A stretch of DNA of 64,000 nucleotides from Promethearchaeota archaeon (GCA_048940925.1 JBHLOC010000009.1:32001-96000); one strand, 5' to 3'; positions 19,229-49,276 are shown, counted from the stretch's first letter. Numbers and translations are program-made. Notes: generated by a model from the letters alone, not told the origin.

Positions 19229-20464
19229 TTAAATTTTCGAAGCTATGAAATCGATAATATCTAGTAATTTTATTTTTTCTTTAATCTCCGGTTCCACTTC
19301 TTCATATGCATCACTTAAATTTCCAATACAAAACGGGCAGCTGGTTGTTAATATATCTGCTCCTGATTCTACGGCTTCTCTAATTCTCTCTTTTGAAATA
19401 TCTTTTGCTAAATTCGGAAATTGACTCTTCATACCTCCACCTGCTCCACAACACCATGCATGTTTACGATTTCTTTTCATTTCAAGCAATTCAACTCCTG
19501 GAATTTTTACAATCAGTTCTCTTGGGATCTCATATAAGTTCATATGACGCCCTAGGTGACAAGGATCATGATATGTTACTTTTATCTGTTCCTCTTTAGC
19601 AGGATCGAAAGGAATTTTGTTATTGTTAATCAAATCAATTAAAACTTCAGTAATATGTTTCACTTCAAATGGTAATTCTTCTCCTAATAAATCTGGATAA
19701 TCTTTCTTTAAAGTTCTATAACATCCTGCACAAGCAGTAAATATTGTTTTTGCTCCCATATTCTTAAAAGTTTCGATATTATGCTTTAAAAGTTCGTCTA
19801 CCGATTTATAATCACCTATACGAGCTCCAATAGAGCCACAACACCATTCATTTTTCGATAATGCAATCTCTATCTCAGATACTGATAATATTTTCATCAT
19901 ACTCTTCAATGTATCAGCTTGTCTTAAAGGCATCGTACACCCTGCAAAAAATACAAGTTCTCCTTTATCTTTAATAGCTGGAAATTCTTGAGCCCACTCA
20001 AATTTTTTGGCTATATCTTCGCCATAAGGATTTTTAGTATTATCATTGTTCATATATTGAATCAATTCTGCGTGTCTATCAAGTGGAGCAAAACCAGCTT
20101 CTACTAAGTCTTTCCTCAAGGCATCCCAAACCTTCACATGATCGATCCATTTACTTGTTGGTAATATGATATTTTCATTATGTGTCATATGGCAAACTTC
20201 TGTACAGTTTCCACATTCAGAACATTTATATATCCACTCCGCGAGTTCTTTACTCAGTGGAATTTGTCCTTTCAAAATACTCTTTAGTACATTCATTCGA
20301 CCTCGAGAAAAGTATATTTCAAAACCCTCTTCATCTTTTGCTTCTTTCACAGGACAAGTTAAATATCTCCCAACAAAAGGTCTAATGGAAAATCCACAAT
20401 CTCCGCAATTCATACAGGTAAATATAGCATCCCATTCTTTTTTCAAATTTTTTAATTCACTCAT
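19229..20464 (-). CDS. Fe-S oxidoreductase with CCG domains (GlpC/HdrD-like)
   Basis: CMNCGDC, CSECGNCTEVC, CCGS, TACAGC, YHDPCH, CCGAGGG. Confidence 0.9.
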   Translation of the reverse strand: MSELKNLKKEWDAIFTCMNCGDCGFSIRPFVGRYLTCPVKEAKDEEGFEIYFSRGRMNVLKSILKGQIPLSKELAEWIYKCSECGNCTEVCHMTHNENIILPTSKWIDHVKVWDALRKDLVEAGFAPLDRHAELIQYMNNDNTKNPYGEDIAKKFEWAQEFPAIKDKGELVFFAGCTMPLRQADTLKSMMKILSVSEIEIALSKNEWCCGSIGARIGDYKSVDELLKHNIETFKNMGAKTIFTACAGCYRTLKKDYPDLLGEELPFEVKHITEVLIDLINNNKIPFDPAKEEQIKVTYHDPCHLGRHMNLYEIPRELIVKIPGVELLEMKRNRKHAWCCGAGGGMKSQFPNLAKDISKERIREAVESGADILTTSCPFCIGNLSDAYEEVEPEIKEKIKLLDIIDFIASKI

Positions 20465-20468
20465 ATTA

Positions 20469-21983
20469 TTAATCCCCCCAAAAATTAAATTTTCCTCTAC
20501 TCAGAATCATATTAGGATCTAGTATTTTCTTGATTGACTTCATTAGATTATAATATTCCTCAGTGTATGCACCAATATCAACCATTAAACGAGACATAAA
20601 ATCTCCCATCATATACCATTGAACACCATGTTTTGTAACTCTTTCTAAAAGTGATTTCCATAATTTTAAATTCGTTTCTTGAATGACATCATAGTTCTCA
20701 CCATTAAAATAACTCCAGAAGCTTGTAAAACCACATGTAATTTCTACATTATTACCATCTATTAATAATATAGGACCACTTCCAGAAATAGGTCTCATTT
20801 TAGTAATATTAAAAATTTTTTGCATATTCTCATTATTTTCCATATCCCATTGATCAATATCGTTCAGAATTTCTGGATATTTATTTACTGGACAAAAAGA
20901 TTCAGCTGTTAATGGTTGATTGGATGGTACCAATCCCCATAAATTGTGATAGAATTGCCAATGTCCTTGTTCAACATAATGCCACTTAGCAATATTACCA
21001 TCCGAAATTTCTGAACCTACGTTTTCTGCTTTATTACTTATCATGATTTCATCTAATTGTTTTGCTTTCTCTTCCAATTCTCCTTCAGAATTGGCTTCTA
21101 TAGTATAAAAAATTAAACCTCTTTTCCTTTTTAAATTCTCATACATGGGCATTAAGCCTTGATCAACTCCAATTCTAACAAGTAAATCCATAATATACAT
21201 TGCATCATAGACATCAATTCCTTTATGTCTAATTTCTGACAAAATTTTTGCTGATACCTCTCTTTCTTTTCGAGGTAATAAGAATGTTTTATACTCGGCA
21301 TATTCTGGTTTAGGAAACACTTGTAAAGATACTTTAGTTTTAACACCAAAAATCCCATTATCCCCACAGAATAGTCCTGCTAAGTCTGGACCATTACCAA
21401 ATCGGTTGAATGGGAATTTTGAATATTTATTTGCTTGAGAACCTGTTTCTATAATATCTCCAGTCGGCAAGACTACTTCTAAAGATACTAATTGATTTGT
21501 ACAGGCACCATATTTAGCACATCCTCCTCCACCAACTGAATGATGTGAAATACCCCCTCCTATTGATGCGGACATGCCTGATCCTGGGCCCATACATCCA
21601 GTATAAAGATTAAAATGGCAAAGATATTCATTTAATTTTCCCCAAGATATTCCTGCTTCAACAGTCACGATAAGATTTTCCTCATCCAAATTTAGAATAT
21701 TATTCATTCTTTTCATATCTAATACAATTCCGTTATCTCCAATAGGTTTACTTCCCCCAAACTCACATATTCCTGCTCCACGAGGAATTACAGCAATATT
21801 TTCTTCATTAGCAATTTTAAGAATTTCTGAGATTTCTTGTGCATCTTTTGGTCGTATTACTATATCAGGTATTCCTTGTAAGACTATATCTACATTTCGC
21901 GAATAAGCATGACGAACATAAAGGTCATTCGAAAGATACTTTTTCGAGACAATTTTCTCTAATTTTTGATATAAATCAGACAT
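20469..21983 (-). CDS. FAD-binding oxidoreductase (GlcD/VAO superfamily)
   Basis: PDIVIRP, PRGAG, SIGGGIS, LEVVLPTG, GPDL, KKILDPNMIL. Confidence 0.9.
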   Translation of the reverse strand: MSDLYQKLEKIVSKKYLSNDLYVRHAYSRNVDIVLQGIPDIVIRPKDAQEISEILKIANEENIAVIPRGAGICEFGGSKPIGDNGIVLDMKRMNNILNLDEENLIVTVEAGISWGKLNEYLCHFNLYTGCMGPGSGMSASIGGGISHHSVGGGGCAKYGACTNQLVSLEVVLPTGDIIETGSQANKYSKFPFNRFGNGPDLAGLFCGDNGIFGVKTKVSLQVFPKPEYAEYKTFLLPRKEREVSAKILSEIRHKGIDVYDAMYIMDLLVRIGVDQGLMPMYENLKRKRGLIFYTIEANSEGELEEKAKQLDEIMISNKAENVGSEISDGNIAKWHYVEQGHWQFYHNLWGLVPSNQPLTAESFCPVNKYPEILNDIDQWDMENNENMQKIFNITKMRPISGSGPILLIDGNNVEITCGFTSFWSYFNGENYDVIQETNLKLWKSLLERVTKHGVQWYMMGDFMSRLMVDIGAYTEEYYNLMKSIKKILDPNMILSRGKFNFWGD

Positions 21984-44302: not shown

Positions 44303-44589
44303 ATCCCTTTTTTTTTTATTTCTATATATAATATACCTATTTCAGAAGTAGAGTTCCTTTATATTGATATTTTGAGAAAAACTAAAGTTATATTTTTATA
44401 TTGCAGTATTTTTCAAAATTGTTTTAACTCTTATCTTTTATTCAGTAACCACATATTTGTTATAAGAAAAATTCATCTCACGTTTGAATAAAATATGAGA
44501 AAATTTAATATTCTGTACTTAATTTTCCCAAATATCAAATATTTTATATAAAATCAAACATAGAAAGATAAACTAAAAGGTTGGAAATA

Positions 44590-46106
44590 ATGAGCTATAA
44601 ATTACCGGATGAAAAAGATCTGGAAGCCATGATAGGCATTGTTGGTAAGGAATACGCTTCAAATAACAAAGCAATTACAGCATCGTACCTGGCGAAATCA
44701 GTGATGGGTTTAGAAATCAATTATCCCAAAGCGGGTAATGACTAAATAGCCAAATCCCTGATATCGTCGTTCGACCAAAATACGTTGAAGAAATTCGTAA
44801 AATTCTTGTATACTGTTCTCAAGAAAAAATAGCAGTAAGCCCTGTTTCTGGTGGATTATCTGGCGGATTCTCGTGCCCAACAATAAAACCTGGTGGAGTT
44901 CTTCTTGATTTAGGAAGAATGAAAAGAATAATTGAAATTGATGAAGAAAATCGATTTGCAATTGTAGAACCTGGAGTAACTATTGGAGAACTGTGGGCAT
45001 ATATGCATAAGAATACTCCTGACTGGGCACCACCAATACCAGATGGAGCTCCACCAGCATCTACAGTTATGGGAGATGCCATTGATAGGGGGTTTTCATT
45101 ATACACATCTAGTGTAGGGCCCCAGGGAGACAACTTTATGTGCGCTGAAGTTGTGTTTGCAAATGGTGACGTTTTAAGGACTGGCTCATGGGCATTACCA
45201 ACTGCGAAACCATTCTATAAATATGGACTTGGTCCTGATTTATGGTCTTTTTTGATGGGTAGTCAAGGAACTATGGGCGTAATCACAAAAGTAGCTGTAA
45301 AGATTTATCCACATCCCGAATTTAAAACAGTAGTTGTGTGGGGCATGTCAAATCCTTATGATATGCAGAATCTAACATTGGAAATCCAAAAACAGGAATT
45401 TGGAATAGCACATAATGCAGTTATGGTACAAGGCGGGAATTATCCTTTAGTAATGACTCGATGGCCAAAGGATAAGGTTCCTCATGATTATAAGTTTTAT
45501 GAAGAGATGGGAATCAGCCAATGGTGGATGAATTTTGAATGCTGGGCTCAAACACAAGAAGAATTAGACTATGTAATAAAAAGAATTGATGAGATGGGAA
45601 ATGATTATAAAAAGAATAGAGCTAAAGACCCTGACTCAATAGTACCTCAGAAACTTCATCCAAAACAAATAGCAAGCAGATTAAAAAAGCCAAATAAAAT
45701 TGCTGTTCCGTATGGTCTATGGGATGCGGGATTTTTATTTATTACATGGTATACTCCCTGGCCAGAATGTGCCCATTTTTGTGAAATGTATTGTGCCGCA
45801 ATGGAGAAATATGGTTTTCCTCCTACGATGTGGGTTGCTTCAATTGAACGTGGTCGACAAGCAATTTGTATGCCGATTGTGTGTTTCGATAGCACAAAGC
45901 CTGAAGAATTAGAAAGAGTTCAAGAATTGAATAGAGAAACTACTGAATATGGTCTAAAGCAAGGATGGCTTAACTACAGACCTGATCCATACATTCATAT
46001 TAAAGCCTATTACCAATCAGGAATGTATTGGAAATACTTGCGAGCAATTAAAAAAATATTAGATCCAAATGGAATATTGCATCCAGGAAGACTTGCTCTT
46101 CCATAA
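44590..46106 (+). CDS. FAD-binding oxidoreductase (GlcD/VAO family), split gene join(44590..44715,44748..46106), 494 aa
   Basis: Exon 1 is 42 codons (MSYKLP...VMGLE). Exon 2 begins SQIPDIVVRP and is in frame with the track ORF at 44919. The joined sequence aligns with the paralog at 20469..21983 with a one-residue gap. Confidence 0.88.
44716..44747 (+). other. 32-nt BHB intron in mRNA
   Basis: Outer helix GGT/GCC, central helix TTAG/CTAA, 3-nt bulges AA^A and AT^A, inner stem TC(A)ATTATCC/GGGTAATGA. Canonical cuts restore the reading frame. Confidence 0.87.
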
Positions 46107-46126
46107 TTAAAGGAGGTTGATAAATA

Positions 46127-47548
46127 TTGGCTAAAACAGGAATGGAAAGATTGGAAGAATTAAAAAAAGATATATTTAAATGTATCCATTGTAAAGCTTG
46201 TAAATTTGCCTATTCCAATGAACCTAACAGGGAAGGTATTGGAGAATATACTGGAAAGCAAGGTACAGTTCTTTATGAAGGGATGGTAGACGCATGTCCA
46301 GCAGGAATTGAATATGGTTGGGAAGCCTTCTGGAATGCGGGTAAAATGTGGATTGCACGTTCGATTTTAAATGGAGATTTAGAATTTAGTGAAGAAGTTC
46401 GAGATGTCATTTTACCATGTATTACATGTGGTCAATGTTCCGCTCAATGTGAAAATAAAGTTCGTACCGTTGATATAATTGAATCTTTAAGAGCAGCGTG
46501 TATAGAATCTGGGGTACCTATGATTGAGAAGCATCAATTAGTAGATAGATTGGTTAAAGAATTGAACAATCCCTATGGAGGAAAAGCCGAGGAACGATTT
46601 AAATGGGCTAAAGATGCAGGTTTAGAAAAATACATTGATAACAAAGATGCAAAAATTGCTTATTATGTAGGCTGTACTGCCAGTTATCGTCAAGTAGAAG
46701 TTGCTATTGCAACTGCTAAACTTTTTGAGCAATTAGGAATGAATTTTACTATTATAACTGATGAGGTATGTTGTGGAAGTCCTTTTTTTAGAATAGGGGC
46801 GGTTGAAACTGCACAGGAATTAATGAAGAAAAATCTTGAATCATTTAAAAATATAAAAATGATATATTTTTCTTGTGCTGGGTGTTATCGAACGTTTACC
46901 ATCGATTACCCTAAATGGATGGTTGAAGGAGAAAAGCTTCCTTTTAAAACACAGCACGCATTTGAACTTGTTGCGAGACTAATCCAGCAAGAAAAAATAA
47001 AATTCAAACCAAACAAGGAATTGAAAGGAAAGGTCGTTACATATCATGATCCTTGTCACACTGGAAGACATTTCGCAGTGGACATGGAACAAGATATAAT
47101 CGAAAAATCGGAGAATCTTTTGATGGACCATCGAAAAATAAGGGAGGCAATTGAAGCTTGGTATGAAGTTCCACGGATTATTCTTAGAAAACTTGAAGAA
47201 GATGTAGGAATTATTTTCAAAGAGATGTATCGTATAAAATTGGATAGTATGTGTTGTGGAGCTGGTGGAGGTGTTCGCGCGGGATATCCCGATTTTTCAC
47301 TACGCACCGCAAGTCTTCGGTGCGATGAAGCAAATGCGGTTGGTGCGGATATCTTAACGACTGAGTGCCCATTTTGTTGGAGAAATTTATCAGATGCGAA
47401 TGATCTGTATAATCACGGCATGATTGTTATGGGAGTTCTTCAGATGATTACAGAATATAATCTGTTGGATATTGTAGTAAAGCCTACAGAAAAAGATTTT
47501 ATGATTCCATCTATTCGAGAAGAGATGGAAGAAAAACCAAAAAAATGA
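46127..47548 (+). CDS. Fe-S oxidoreductase with CCG domains (GlpC/HdrD-like)
   Basis: CIHCKAC, CITCGQCSAQC, CCGS, CAGC, YHDPCH, CCGAGGG. TTG start after GGAGG. Confidence 0.9.
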   Translation: MAKTGMERLEELKKDIFKCIHCKACKFAYSNEPNREGIGEYTGKQGTVLYEGMVDACPAGIEYGWEAFWNAGKMWIARSILNGDLEFSEEVRDVILPCITCGQCSAQCENKVRTVDIIESLRAACIESGVPMIEKHQLVDRLVKELNNPYGGKAEERFKWAKDAGLEKYIDNKDAKIAYYVGCTASYRQVEVAIATAKLFEQLGMNFTIITDEVCCGSPFFRIGAVETAQELMKKNLESFKNIKMIYFSCAGCYRTFTIDYPKWMVEGEKLPFKTQHAFELVARLIQQEKIKFKPNKELKGKVVTYHDPCHTGRHFAVDMEQDIIEKSENLLMDHRKIREAIEAWYEVPRIILRKLEEDVGIIFKEMYRIKLDSMCCGAGGGVRAGYPDFSLRTASLRCDEANAVGADILTTECPFCWRNLSDANDLYNHGMIVMGVLQMITEYNLLDIVVKPTEKDFMIPSIREEMEEKPKK

Positions 47549-47779: not shown

Positions 47780-49276
47780 ATGAAAAAAAAAAAAGTAATT
47801 CCAATTATAGCGTTAGTGATTATTGCTGCCTTAGTTATTACTTTAGTCATACTTTTTATTCCATTTGGAGGACCCCCTACACCAAGTGCTAGAAAAGCAA
47901 TTATAGTCAGTAGTGCGAACGATTTTCAAAAAAGTGAGGGGGAAGATGATTTCAATGATAGTGATGATGCAAATTTTAGTGCTGAATCAGGAAGATGGAT
48001 TGAGAATGCCACTAATGGATATATAGGACAGGATAATGATCTTGGTCCTGATGGTAATCCAGGTATTGTAAAATTAATTGCTAATGTTTTCCCAGATCCA
48101 ACTGGTTATACCCACATTGAATATGTATATAATTGGACAAAATATTATCCAATTTACACATATGCTATATACAATCTTTCTGCTTGGGTGAAAATATTAA
48201 ATCAAACGGGAAATGCAACCTATATAGGTTCACCAGGAGCTAGAATAGGATTACGATGGTTAAATTCCAATAATAGTATAATAAGAACGGATTGGTCTAA
48301 AGGAATAATTGATACGGAAGGAACATGGGTATATTTAAATATTACAGGTATATGTGATGGTTCTACTATCAATAAAATAACTCAGCTGCATTTAGTTTTA
48401 GCTTTTGAGGGTAATGTAAGTCAAGGTGATATGGTGTGGTATGATGATGTGAGAGTTGAGCGATGGATTTCGGTTAATGTAACAAATCCTATAAATCCGA
48501 TTCCTCCTCCAGGTAGCATAGATTCAGATGGATTTCCTGCACAAGCCCTCCAAGTTTATTGGATCTTGAAGCATCACGGGTATTCCGATAAGAATATATT
48601 TTTAATGTTGTATCATAAAAATGATAATATAATTGATATAAATGCGAAAGATGGTATAACAAACGATTTAACAGGGGCTATTATTGATGTGGAGAATGAC
48701 GATGTTAAAGCTAGTAGATTCAAACAAGAATTAAATGTTTCAATCAAGGGGTCATTTGCTTCCAGTATCAAGGCAAAAGATCAATTGATAATTTATGTGG
48801 TAGATCATGGATCGAATAAGATAGCTGGTGAGGGTAATGCTACCTTTCATTTTGAAGCAGATGATAGTTACATCACTGAAACAGAATTTTATAATTTAGT
48901 CAAAGAAATTGATTGTGAACGTATGCTGATTAATATTGATATCTGTTTCAGTGGTAATTTTTTAAATATAAATTCAAACATAGGACAAAGTTGGTATGAT
49001 ATACCTAATTCAATTCTCATCACTTCAACTACAGATATTTTCTCTTGGTATTGGCGTGATAATAGTAATCCTGATGGTTTTGCAGGTTCTTGGTTCTTTC
49101 ATACATTTTGGGATCAATTAAATCAGAGTGAATCGATACAGGAGGCATTTGATTATGCTAAGAATTATATTCCCGCAAGACAAAAGATTCCTATTATTCA
49201 AATACAAAGCCCTTTAATAAAAGATAATTTAGGAATTAAAGACTCTTGGAGTTTTAGTAGCATTCCTCAATTGTAG
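47780..49276 (+). CDS. Membrane-anchored clan CD protease (C13/caspase-like) with an inserted beta-sandwich domain
   Basis: N-terminal TM, YVVDHGS and IDICFSG His/Cys dyad, GSWF. Confidence 0.7.
   Translation: MKKKKVIPIIALVIIAALVITLVILFIPFGGPPTPSARKAIIVSSANDFQKSEGEDDFNDSDDANFSAESGRWIENATNGYIGQDNDLGPDGNPGIVKLIANVFPDPTGYTHIEYVYNWTKYYPIYTYAIYNLSAWVKILNQTGNATYIGSPGARIGLRWLNSNNSIIRTDWSKGIIDTEGTWVYLNITGICDGSTINKITQLHLVLAFEGNVSQGDMVWYDDVRVERWISVNVTNPINPIPPPGSIDSDGFPAQALQVYWILKHHGYSDKNIFLMLYHKNDNIIDINAKDGITNDLTGAIIDVENDDVKASRFKQELNVSIKGSFASSIKAKDQLIIYVVDHGSNKIAGEGNATFHFEADDSYITETEFYNLVKEIDCERMLINIDICFSGNFLNINSNIGQSWYDIPNSILITSTTDIFSWYWRDNSNPDGFAGSWFFHTFWDQLNQSESIQEAFDYAKNYIPARQKIPIIQIQSPLIKDNLGIKDSWSFSSIPQL

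What the first reader, a model, noticed from the sequence alone, without database searches (positions are those of the whole stretch)
44590..46106. tRNA-type BHB intron in a protein-coding gene of a probable Asgard archaeon
Seen: the ATG at 44590 opens 42 codons, then a 32-nt insert (ATCAATTATCCCAAAGCGGGTAATGACTAAAT) adds a TAA stop at 44743 and shifts the frame. Its borders fold into a complete hBHBh' motif: GGT-TTAG-AAA-[stem-loop]-CTAA-ATA-GCC. Cutting after the second base of each bulge gives GGT TTA GAA|AGC CAA ATC (GLE|SQIP), an uninterrupted 494-aa protein. It matches the intron-less paralog at 20469..21983 (AYSRNVDIVLQGIPDIVIRP versus SYLAKSVMGLESQIPDIVVRP). The ORF-track start at 44919 would lose part of the FAD-binding domain. 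Known: archaeal EndA cuts BHB motifs at these positions and RtcB ligates them. The well-established archaeal mRNA intron is in crenarchaeal cbf5. Inference: this lineage splices a metabolic mRNA with the tRNA machinery, and such genes would be annotated as truncated. I know of no description of this in Asgard archaea but cannot check the literature.
Basis: partly seen in the sequence, partly recalled or inferred. Interest (0 to 1): 0.95.

Follow-up and report, generated by a model that had tools for sequence, protein, structure and literature searches.

The report
tRNA-type mini-intron in Asgard enzyme gene
A 32-base insert that seems to break an FAD-oxidoreductase gene of a Loki-type Asgard archaeon is almost certainly a true intron, cut out of the messenger RNA by the enzymes that splice tRNAs; the papers I could search confirm this inside an archaeal coding sequence for only one gene (cbf5).

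Summary
Bases 44716-44747 interrupt a GlcD-like FAD-oxidoreductase gene. The flanks fold into a complete hBHBh' motif, and cutting after the second base of each bulge joins 42 + 452 codons in frame.

- **Same insert elsewhere:** it sits at the same site in 9 other Promethearchaeota species genomes and 10 metagenome contigs.
- **Precise absence:** about 55 orthologs lack exactly these bases.
- **Structure conserved:** 96% of pair cells stay paired, against 21-46% in slid controls. Five pairs show compensatory changes, some at synonymous sites of the two exons.
- **Gene still functional:** both exons are under purifying selection (pN/pS 0.14 and 0.08). The 57 codons after the insert have no start codon of their own.
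- **Machinery present:** the genome encodes EndA alpha and beta subunits and RtcB.
- **Missing evidence:** no RNA data exist, so splicing is inferred, not seen.

Three further results go beyond the finding:
- The intron spreads and is lost through homologous recombination that carries the flanking exon sequence with it.
- The same gene family has BHB-type inserts of 28-34 nt at about 8 other positions in relatives.
- This genome has at least 3 more interrupted protein genes.

This scan found the same intron, and similar ones, before on other Asgard DNA. I found no publication describing them. The closest known case is the crenarchaeal cbf5 intron.

The parts
44543..44550 (+). TATA-box-like TTTATATA about 40 nt upstream of the start codon (possible archaeal promoter)
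   Evidence: Read from the sequence. Inference only, not tested.
44590..44715 (+). Exon 1: 42 codons, MSYKLPDEKDLEAM...SVMGLE
   Evidence: Translation. The frame is intact and the peptide conserved in all intron-bearing relatives, with pN/pS 0.14.
44697..44713 (+). 5' strand of the exon-exon helices (44697-701, 44703-05, 44707-09) and of the 4-bp central helix (44710-13)
   Evidence: Folds. Pair counts show 97.6% and 100% of cells paired, with compensatory changes at synonymous sites.
44714..44716 (+). 5' bulge AAA; predicted cut between 44715 and 44716
   Evidence: Geometry. The cut rule, between bulge nucleotides 2 and 3, is from PMC2738675.
44716..44747 (+). 32-nt BHB intron, with an in-frame TAA at 44743
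   Evidence: Present in 9 other species genomes and in metagenome contigs; precisely absent from about 55 orthologs. Single copy in this genome.
44717..44741 (+). Intron hairpin (h'): 2-3 bp, one bulged base, 6-7 bp, 6-nt loop
   Evidence: Folds. The loop and the bulged base vary freely while stem changes keep pairing (U-G to U-A, C-G to U-G). The 29- and 31-nt variants have different stem sequences but the same architecture.
44742..44748 (+). 3' strand of the central helix (44742-45) and 3' bulge AUA (44746-48); predicted cut between 44747 and 44748
   Evidence: In L089 the central helix pair A-U becomes G-C.
44748..46106 (+). Exon 2: 452 codons plus stop; FAD_binding_4 domain starts at residue 4
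   Evidence: Translation. Pfam PF01565 scores 83 bits at residues 4-146. The first 57 codons have no start codon and pN/pS 0.084.
44749..44762 (+). 3' strand of the exon-exon helices (44749-51, 44754-56, 44758-62)
   Evidence: 96.5% of these pairs form in intron-bearing genes against 76.7% in intron-less orthologs.
46127..47548 (+). Downstream partner gene: Fe-S protein with two CCG domains (GlcF/HdrD-like), 20 nt after exon 2, with its own GGAGG ribosome-binding site
   Evidence: Pfam CCG and Fer4_8; sequence.
20469..21983 (-). Intron-less paralog of the FAD subunit (30% identity)
19229..20464 (-). CCG/Fe-S partner gene of the paralog

Best explanation
Bases 44716-44747 are a bulge-helix-bulge (BHB) intron in the pre-mRNA of a GlcD-like FAD-binding oxidoreductase.

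**Proposed mechanism**
1. The transcript folds so that exon 1 pairs with exon 2 (outer helix), four exon-1 bases pair with four bases at the intron's 3' end (central helix), and the rest of the intron forms a hairpin.
2. This presents two 3-nt bulges on opposite strands.
3. The organism's two-subunit splicing endonuclease (EndA alpha/beta) cuts after the second base of each bulge.
4. RtcB joins the exons.
5. Only the joined mRNA encodes the 494-aa enzyme, with its N-terminus and complete FAD-binding domain.

**Shown here:** the motif, its exact agreement with the ortholog-defined boundaries, its conservation through covariation, purifying selection on both exons, and the presence of the enzymes.

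**Inferred:** cleavage and ligation in vivo.

**Evolution:** the intron behaves as a heritable element that moves between related lineages, and is removed from them, by homologous recombination that carries 100-250 nt of flanking exon sequence.
For: 1. **Geometry.** The fold is a complete hBHBh'. It scores -17.3 kcal/mol against an MFE of -18.0. The chance rate of even a minimal motif at a given place and length is 2.6e-4.
2. **Boundaries.** The predicted cuts restore the frame and give G-L-E|S-Q-I-P.
   - About 55 orthologs in Promethearchaeota MAGs, and three diverged metagenome contigs, lack exactly 32 nt there.
3. **The insert is real DNA.** It is identical in a Logan contig of another run (X2). 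It is also present in 9 other species-level MAGs from different studies and in 10 JGI/ENA metagenome contigs.
4. **Covariation.**
   - 96.3% of pair cells form, against 21-46% when partners are slid.
   - Five pairs change on both sides (0 of 500 shuffles reach this).
   - These include A-U to G-C in the central helix, and two exon-exon pairs whose partners are synonymous third positions of codons in different exons.
   - Variants of 29 and 31 nt keep the architecture with different hairpin sequences.
5. **The gene is alive.**
   - Among 12 distinct intron-bearing alleles, with pS about 0.5, pN/pS is 0.14 in exon 1 and 0.084 in the first 57 codons of exon 2.
   - No ATG/GTG/TTG exists in that frame before 44919.
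6. **Flanks adapted to the motif.** All intron-bearing genes use AGY for the Ser after the junction, against 21 of 48 intron-less ones. They form 96.5% of the exon-exon pairs, against 76.7%.
7. **Machinery.**
   - The genome encodes one EndA homolog with the catalytic-type sequence and one without the His, each with both endonuclease domains.
   - RtcB is present.
   - Asgard archaea are reported to have the broad-specificity (alpha-beta)2 EndA (PMC5829648).
8. **Not an isolated case.**
   - BHB inserts of 28-34 nt that restore the conserved protein occur at about 8 other positions of this gene family in relatives.
   - Three more genes of this genome are interrupted in the same way, with family profiles continuing across the junction.
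Against: - No RNA has been seen. No spliced junction, circular intron or peptide is available.
- The structure predictor's MFE does not itself draw the 4-bp central helix. The BHB fold is 0.7 kcal/mol higher.
- Most intron-bearing sequences are closely related around the intron, so part of the pair conservation reflects shared ancestry. The informative covariation comes mainly from three divergent contigs (L089, L093, L097).
- Comparative data leave two equivalent cut placements (after 44715 or after 44716), because 44716 and 44748 are both A.
Confidence: 0.88

Rival explanations
1. The gene is a pseudogene. A 32-nt insertion, a small mobile element or a repair scar, inactivated it, and the hairpin-like shape is incidental.
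For: The insert shifts the frame and brings in a stop. Public annotation treats such genes as truncated (395-aa products).
Against: - Exon 1 and the start-less first 57 codons of exon 2 stay open in 12 diverged alleles and are under strong purifying selection.
- The structure co-varies.
- The insert is single copy in the genome, so it is not a repeat family.
- The predicted cuts coincide exactly with the ortholog-defined boundaries.
Confidence: 0.03
2. The ribosome bypasses the 32 nt (translational hopping, as in T4 gene 60) or otherwise recodes. No RNA splicing takes place.
For: A hairpin and a stop lie in the gap. Early cbf5 cases were confused with frameshifting (PMC2738675).
Against: - There is no matching take-off and landing codon: GAA at 44713-15 against AAT at 44745-47.
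- The stop is nine codons after the take-off site, not adjacent to it.
- What is conserved and co-varies is precisely the BHB geometry, including helices between the two exons. Bypassing does not require these.
- Similar inserts at about 8 other sites in the family share only the BHB.
Confidence: 0.02
3. EndA cuts the BHB but the exons are not rejoined. The motif is a cleavage-based off-switch or processing site, and the functional product is the shorter protein or two pieces.
For: BHB motifs serve for processing without exon ligation in rRNA precursors. Earlier notes of this scan proposed a switch. No data on ligation exist.
Against: - Exon 2's first 57 codons, including the start of the FAD-binding domain, have no start codon yet are under the strongest constraint.
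- Exon 1 is conserved in frame.
- Intron-less orthologs make the joined protein directly.
- RtcB is present.
- Regulation of splicing efficiency is not excluded, and it is compatible with the main explanation.
Confidence: 0.05
4. The insert is an assembly or sequencing artefact of this MAG.
For: The genome is a 90-contig metagenome assembly with 8% estimated contamination.
Against: The same insert occurs in 9 other species MAGs, 10 metagenome contigs and independent Logan contigs. They carry natural sequence variation, including compensatory changes.
Confidence: 0.01

Closest known systems
BHB intron in the cbf5 (aCBF5 pseudouridine synthase) pre-mRNA of Crenarchaeota (Watanabe 2002; Yoshinari 2006; Yokobori 2009, PMC2738675)
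   Same: - A short intron inside an archaeal protein-coding sequence, with a BHB at the exon-intron borders.
- Predicted cuts between bulge nucleotides 2 and 3.
- An organism with a hetero-oligomeric EndA.
- Patchy distribution, with gains and losses among relatives.
- Genes mis-annotated as truncated or frameshifted.
   Different: - Different gene (a metabolic FAD oxidoreductase) and different phylum (Loki-type Asgard).
- The motif here is a strict hBHBh', whereas most cbf5 motifs are described as unconventional.
- Here the same gene family carries such introns at about 9 positions, up to 5 in one gene copy.
- Loss and gain can be traced to recombination tracts rather than the reverse-transcription route suggested for cbf5.
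- cbf5 splicing was shown by cDNA. This one is not yet shown in RNA.
Archaeal tRNA and rRNA BHB introns, including the very intron-rich tRNA genes of Asgard archaea (PMC11291895; bioRxiv 10.64898/2026.10.13.758758)
   Same: The same recognition motif and presumably the same enzymes. Similar size range. This genome's tRNA genes are also heavily interrupted.
   Different: The host is an mRNA, so excision must be exact to the nucleotide to keep the reading frame. The exon arms of the helix are built from codons and co-vary at synonymous sites. Neither Asgard paper mentions protein-coding introns.
BHB intron in a 5' UTR of a Haloferax volcanii mRNA (Schwarz et al. 2020, PMC7714728)
   Same: An mRNA substrate of the archaeal splicing endonuclease.
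   Different: That intron lies in the untranslated leader and does not interrupt the coding sequence.
Non-conventional splicing of HAC1/XBP1 mRNA in eukaryotes (Ire1 cleavage, tRNA-ligase/RtcB joining)
   Same: A short intron is removed from a coding mRNA by an endonuclease that recognises stem-loops, then joined by the tRNA ligase. Removal changes the reading frame. (From general knowledge.)
   Different: The nuclease is Ire1, not the tRNA-splicing endonuclease, and the event is a regulated stress response. No homology is implied.

Membership tests
Archaeal BHB (splicing-endonuclease) intron | Two 3-nt bulges on opposite strands, separated by a 4-bp helix | tested here: met
   Central helix 44710-13/44742-45, bulges 44714-16 and 44746-48. 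The helix is paired in 100% of cells across 15 sequences, with one compensatory change.
Archaeal BHB (splicing-endonuclease) intron | Flanking helices h (exon-exon) and h' (intron hairpin), giving the strict hBHBh' form | tested here: met
   The outer helix has 3 bp plus 3 and 5 further pairs. The inner hairpin has 9 bp with one bulged base. Cells paired: 97.6% and 93.1%.
Archaeal BHB (splicing-endonuclease) intron | Cutting between bulge nucleotides 2 and 3 yields the functional, in-frame product | tested here: met
   Joins 42 + 452 codons as GLE|SQIP. The cut rule is from PMC2738675. The product is collinear with 494-497-aa orthologs.
Archaeal BHB (splicing-endonuclease) intron | Precisely absent from intron-less homologs | tested here: met
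   About 55 species-level orthologs and three diverged Logan contigs lack exactly 32 nt.
Archaeal BHB (splicing-endonuclease) intron | Host encodes the splicing endonuclease and the RtcB ligase | tested here: met
   Two PF01974/PF02778 proteins, 198 and 200 aa. RtcB scores 556 bits.
Archaeal BHB (splicing-endonuclease) intron | Spliced RNA, circular intron, or in vitro cleavage observed | not testable with these tools
   No run on record as RNA holds the stretch. Only DNA contigs could be laid.
cbf5 intron family of Crenarchaeota | Located in the cbf5 gene, at the catalytic Asp codon | tested here: not met
   The host gene is a FAD_binding_4 oxidoreductase. This is the same kind of element but not a member of that family.
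FAD-binding PCMH-type oxidoreductases (Pfam FAD_binding_4) | Match to PF01565 above its gathering score | tested here: met
   83 bits against a cut-off of 26.4, at exon-2 residues 4-146 covering profile positions 1-139.
Glycolate oxidase subunit GlcD (NCBIfam TIGR00387 equivalog) | Score above the equivalog cut-off | tested here: not met
   99 bits against a cut-off of 568. It is GlcD-like only; the substrate is unknown. The partner is a CCG Fe-S protein.

The most novel reading that the evidence does not exclude
Loki-type Asgard archaea routinely splice messenger RNAs with the tRNA-splicing machinery.
- Their protein genes carry a population of 28-34-nt BHB mini-introns. There are about 9 positions in this one gene family, up to 5 in a single gene copy, and at least 4 interrupted genes in this genome.
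- These introns are gained and lost between lineages by homologous recombination that co-transfers flanking exon sequence.
- Their exon arms are maintained by selection on synonymous sites.

This would make intron-interrupted protein genes, and obligatory mRNA splicing, an ordinary feature of the closest prokaryotic relatives of eukaryotes.
Probability: 0.65. Interest if true: 0.9.

Novelty: new member of a known kind. Interest (0 to 1): 0.85.

Why it matters
- **Extends a near-unique case.** In the papers I could search, endonuclease-dependent splicing of an archaeal coding sequence is confirmed for one gene, cbf5, in Crenarchaeota. Here the same mechanism is very probably needed to express an ordinary metabolic enzyme in an Asgard archaeon. 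The surrounding evidence shows it is not a one-off, because there are many positions in this gene family and several genes in this genome.
- **Annotation.** Such genes are called truncated, frameshifted or pseudogenes, which distorts metabolic reconstructions of Asgard MAGs.
- **RNA biology.** The exon arms of the splice motif are made of codons and co-vary at synonymous sites.
- **Evolution.** Intron gain and loss by recombination, in the lineage closest to eukaryotes, becomes directly testable.
- **Experiments.** The case gives concrete substrates for in vitro EndA/RtcB assays and junction sequences to look for in metatranscriptomes and proteomes.

Tried and rejected
- **RNA evidence:** no RNA holder is listed for the stretch. 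Only DNA contigs could be laid, so expression and splicing could not be examined.
- **Rfam and ARAGORN:** both found nothing in the window.
- **Genome-wide census from structure plus open frames:**
  - With first and second exons of at least 35 codons, there was no excess of frame-restoring BHB hits over cuts shifted by 1-2 nt (about 3000 each).
  - A relaxed version allowing short first exons gave about 8000 per shift and was useless.
  - Only for lengths up to 40 nt and constrained energy of -10 kcal/mol or lower was there a small excess (4 against about 1). This yielded the real cases.
- **Paralog-supported junction test:** it ranked this intron first but showed no clear excess otherwise.
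- **False positives from the scan:** candidates in an AMP-ligase gene (C54), katG (C7), valS (C63) and others were rejected. Their 'exon 1' is out-of-frame sequence of an intact gene.
- **Earlier notes not relocated:** I could not find the purA and rnhB introns named in earlier notes using guessed patterns.
- **Unconvincing inserts in relatives:** those in L034 (23 nt), L054 (26 nt) and L055 (4065-4095) gave no convincing BHB. One L066 discontinuity is an N-run.
- **Repeat-family idea:** rejected, because the intron is single copy in this genome.
- **DNA-level excision:** no same-strain contig lacks the insert.

Full report
**What is there.** The window lies in a 4.8-Mb, 90-contig assembly with 29.7% G+C and heavily interrupted tRNA genes.
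- At 44590 an ATG opens 42 codons that end GGT TTA GAA at 44715.
- The next 32 nt (44716-44747) shift the frame and bring a TAA at 44743 into frame.
- From 44748 a second frame runs 452 codons to the stop at 46104-46106.
- That frame has no ATG, GTG or TTG before 44919, yet the FAD_binding_4 domain already starts at its fourth residue.
- Twenty bases downstream lies a gene for an Fe-S protein with two CCG domains.
- An intron-less paralogous pair, FAD subunit plus CCG subunit, lies on the minus strand at 19229-21983.

**The motif.** The flanks and the insert form a complete hBHBh'.
- The exon-exon helix is 44707-09/44749-51, extended by 44703-05/44754-56 and 44697-701/44758-62.
- The 4-bp central helix is 44710-13/44742-45.
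- The two 3-nt bulges are 44714-16 and 44746-48.
- The intron hairpin is 44717-41.
- Evaluated as written, this fold scores -17.3 kcal/mol, against -18.0 for the MFE. The MFE keeps every helix except the central one.
- The published rule puts the cuts between the second and third bulge nucleotides (PMC2738675). Cutting there removes exactly 44716-44747 and joins GAA|AGC, giving a 494-aa protein.
- In this genome a minimal version of the motif occurs at 2.6e-4 of all position-and-length combinations.

**Comparative test of the boundaries.** A scan of one genome per prokaryotic species returned 67 Promethearchaeota loci with the ortholog.
- Nine of them (L004, L005, L006, L008, L009, L010, L016, L020, L069) carry a 32-nt insert at the same place.
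- About 55 read straight through as ...ATG GGN YTN GAR | AGY or TCN CAR AT..., so exactly these 32 nt are missing.
- Logan contigs from four public DNA runs show the same picture.
  - One contig is identical to the window across the insert.
  - Contigs in two runs carry the insert with G44735A.
  - Contigs of three diverged forms lack exactly 32 nt.
- A pattern scan of metagenome contigs added ten more intron-bearing sequences. These include variants of 31 nt (L089) and 29 nt (L093, L097) at the same site.
- An assembly artefact is therefore excluded.

**Structure is under selection.** I counted pairs on an alignment of 15 distinct intron-bearing sequences.
- 96.3% of pair cells form a standard pair, against 21-46% when the 3' partners are slid by 1-3 columns.
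- Five pairs have changes on both sides, which none of 500 shuffles reaches.
- The central helix changes from A-U to G-C in L089.
- Two pairs of the exon-exon helix change from A-U to G-C and from G-C to U-A in L093 and L097. Their partners are third codon positions in different exons (TCA/TCG Ser with CCT/CCC Pro; GTG/GTT Val with ATC/ATA Ile).
- The loop and the bulged base of the hairpin vary freely.
- The 29- and 31-nt variants have different stem sequences but the same architecture.
- Intron-bearing genes form 96.5% of the eleven exon-exon pairs and always use AGY for the serine after the junction. Intron-less orthologs form 76.7% and use TCN in 26 of 48.
- Caveat: the 32-nt alleles are close relatives around the intron, so the informative covariation rests mainly on three divergent contigs.

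**The gene is functional.** Twelve distinct intron-bearing alleles differ by about 0.5 synonymous changes per site.
- pN/pS is 0.14 in exon 1.
- pN/pS is 0.084 in the 57 start-less codons at the beginning of exon 2.
- All alleles keep ATG and the same N-terminal peptide.
- A pseudogene, or a protein starting at 44919, would not show this.
- Translational bypassing is unlikely. There are no matched take-off and landing codons, and what is conserved is the BHB, including exon-exon pairing.

**Machinery.**
- The genome encodes two endonuclease homologs of 198 and 200 aa, each with both EndA domains.
- One has the catalytic-type Tyr/His/Lys context. The other lacks the His, judging from my reading of the sequences.
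- This fits the (alpha-beta)2 enzyme with broad specificity reported for Asgard archaea (PMC5829648).
- RtcB is present at 556 bits.

**How the intron moves.** On a protein tree of exon 2, the intron needs at least 6 changes, of which at least 4 are forced by well-supported branches.
- Sliding comparisons show mosaics.
  - L020 is 92-100% identical to its intron-less sisters over most of the gene. It drops to 73-85% over nt 43-168 around the intron, where it is 88-97% identical to L009 and L016.
  - L016 shows the same over nt 43-294.
  - The intron-less L003 and L007 are otherwise 95-100% identical to intron-bearing L004. They carry a foreign tract over about nt 85-210.
- A DNA tree of exon 2 nt 301-1340 rejects monophyly of the 32-nt-intron alleles (delta lnL 506, p-AU 4e-13).
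- The flanks, with the helix-forming positions removed, do not reject it (p-AU 0.17).
- The simplest reading is one origin of this intron, followed by spread and removal through homologous recombination that co-transfers flanking exon sequence.
- The intron is single copy in the genome, so it is not a repeat family.

**Not an isolated case.** Aligning relatives to an intron-less coding sequence revealed further 28-34-nt inserts in the same gene family.
- They lie near codons 13-14 (L068, L093, L097), 47 (L068), 205 (L068), 233 (L068, L066), 370 (L062), 402 (L047, L051), 453 (L051) and 487-489 (L051, L055).
- At most of these sites there is a 4-bp helix flanked by 3-nt bulges, perfect or with one mismatch. 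Its predicted cuts restore the conserved protein sequence.
- L068 carries five such inserts in one gene.
- In the window's own genome, a strict scan plus family searches confirmed three more interrupted genes.
  - An AIR-synthase-related gene at C30:66095-66124 has a 30-nt insert. Its hBHBh' is the MFE itself, with z = -6.4. The AIRS profile resumes at position 43 at the start of exon 2.
  - An aEF-2-type GTPase at C32:27895-27924 (minus strand) has a 30-nt insert. The GTP_EFTU profile covers 3-35 in exon 1 and 49-187 in exon 2, and the aEF-2 profile covers 62-720 in exon 2.
  - A gamma-carbonic-anhydrase-like gene at C18 has a 31-nt insert near 48862-48893 (minus strand). The profile covers 6-82 in exon 1 and 87-170 in exon 2.
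- My ORF-based census cannot see short first exons or relaxed motifs, so these are minimum numbers.

**Literature and earlier notes.**
- Full-text searches found protein-coding BHB introns confirmed only for crenarchaeal cbf5, plus a 5'-UTR intron in Haloferax.
- The 2009 cbf5 paper states that introns in other protein genes had only been predicted.
- Papers on Asgard introns deal with tRNA genes.
- Earlier notes of this scan describe the same intron in other genomes, and other mRNA mini-introns in this and other Asgard genomes.
- I used those notes as leads only and verified one of them, the gamma-CA gene.

**Verdict.** The missing piece is RNA. The element works like the cbf5 intron and is a new member of that kind. 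It sits in a new phylum and gene, within what looks like a lineage-wide population of mRNA mini-introns.

Noticed in passing
G000 C30:66095-66124 (+); locus L083:1596-1625: A 30-nt insert in an AIR-synthase-related (ThiL/HypE/SelD-like) gene. The MFE itself is a perfect hBHBh' (11-bp outer helix, 9-bp hairpin, z -6.4). Excision joins 168 + 301 codons, and the AIRS N-domain profile resumes at position 43 at the start of exon 2.
   Followed up: partly
G000 C32:27895-27924 (-); locus L084:2896-2925: A 30-nt BHB insert with an in-frame TAA splits the G domain of an aEF-2-type GTPase between ...QMTDSD and DEEQERGITI. The GTP_EFTU profile covers 3-35 in exon 1 and 49-187 in exon 2.
   Followed up: partly
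G000 C18, about 48862-48893 (-); locus L099 about 1064-1094: A 31-nt BHB insert (central helix with one mismatch) lies in a gamma-carbonic-anhydrase-like gene, between ...IGHHAM and VHGPC. The NCBIfam profile covers 6-82 in exon 1 and 87-170 in exon 2.
   Followed up: partly
L068:2840-3619; L051:2659-3010; L055:4065-4433; L062:3986-4019; L047:4080-4109; L066:3573-3601; L093, L097: Orthologs of the same FAD-oxidoreductase gene in other Promethearchaeota carry BHB-type inserts of 28-34 nt at about 8 other positions. L068 has up to five in one gene. The central helices co-vary between species at the codon 13-14 site (CATG/CGTG, TATG/CGTG, GATG/CATT).
   Followed up: partly
L020, L016, L003, L007 (exon 1 plus the first 300 nt of exon 2): These are mosaic alleles. 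The 100-250 nt around the intron site have a different history from the rest of the gene. This applies both to lineages that carry the intron and to close relatives that lack it.
   Followed up: yes
Loci L003, L014, L017, L019, L028, L029, L031, L035, L037, L041, L043, L065: The record titles call these MAGs Thor-, Hod-, Hermod- or Odinarchaeota. Their orthologs nest among Promethearchaeota (Loki-type) sequences at 80-94% identity. The labels of this MAG series may be unreliable, or the gene may be exchanged widely.
   Followed up: no
window 19229-21983 (-) and 44590-47548 (+): There are two diverged pairs of FAD_binding_4 subunit plus CCG/Fe-S subunit within 25 kb. Only one pair is intron-interrupted. 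The substrate is unknown: the GlcD equivalog score is far below its cut-off.
   Followed up: partly
G000 C3:50049-50141: ARAGORN calls a tRNA-SeC, and most tRNA genes of the genome are called with introns. The ARAGORN intron coordinates look unreliable.
   Followed up: no
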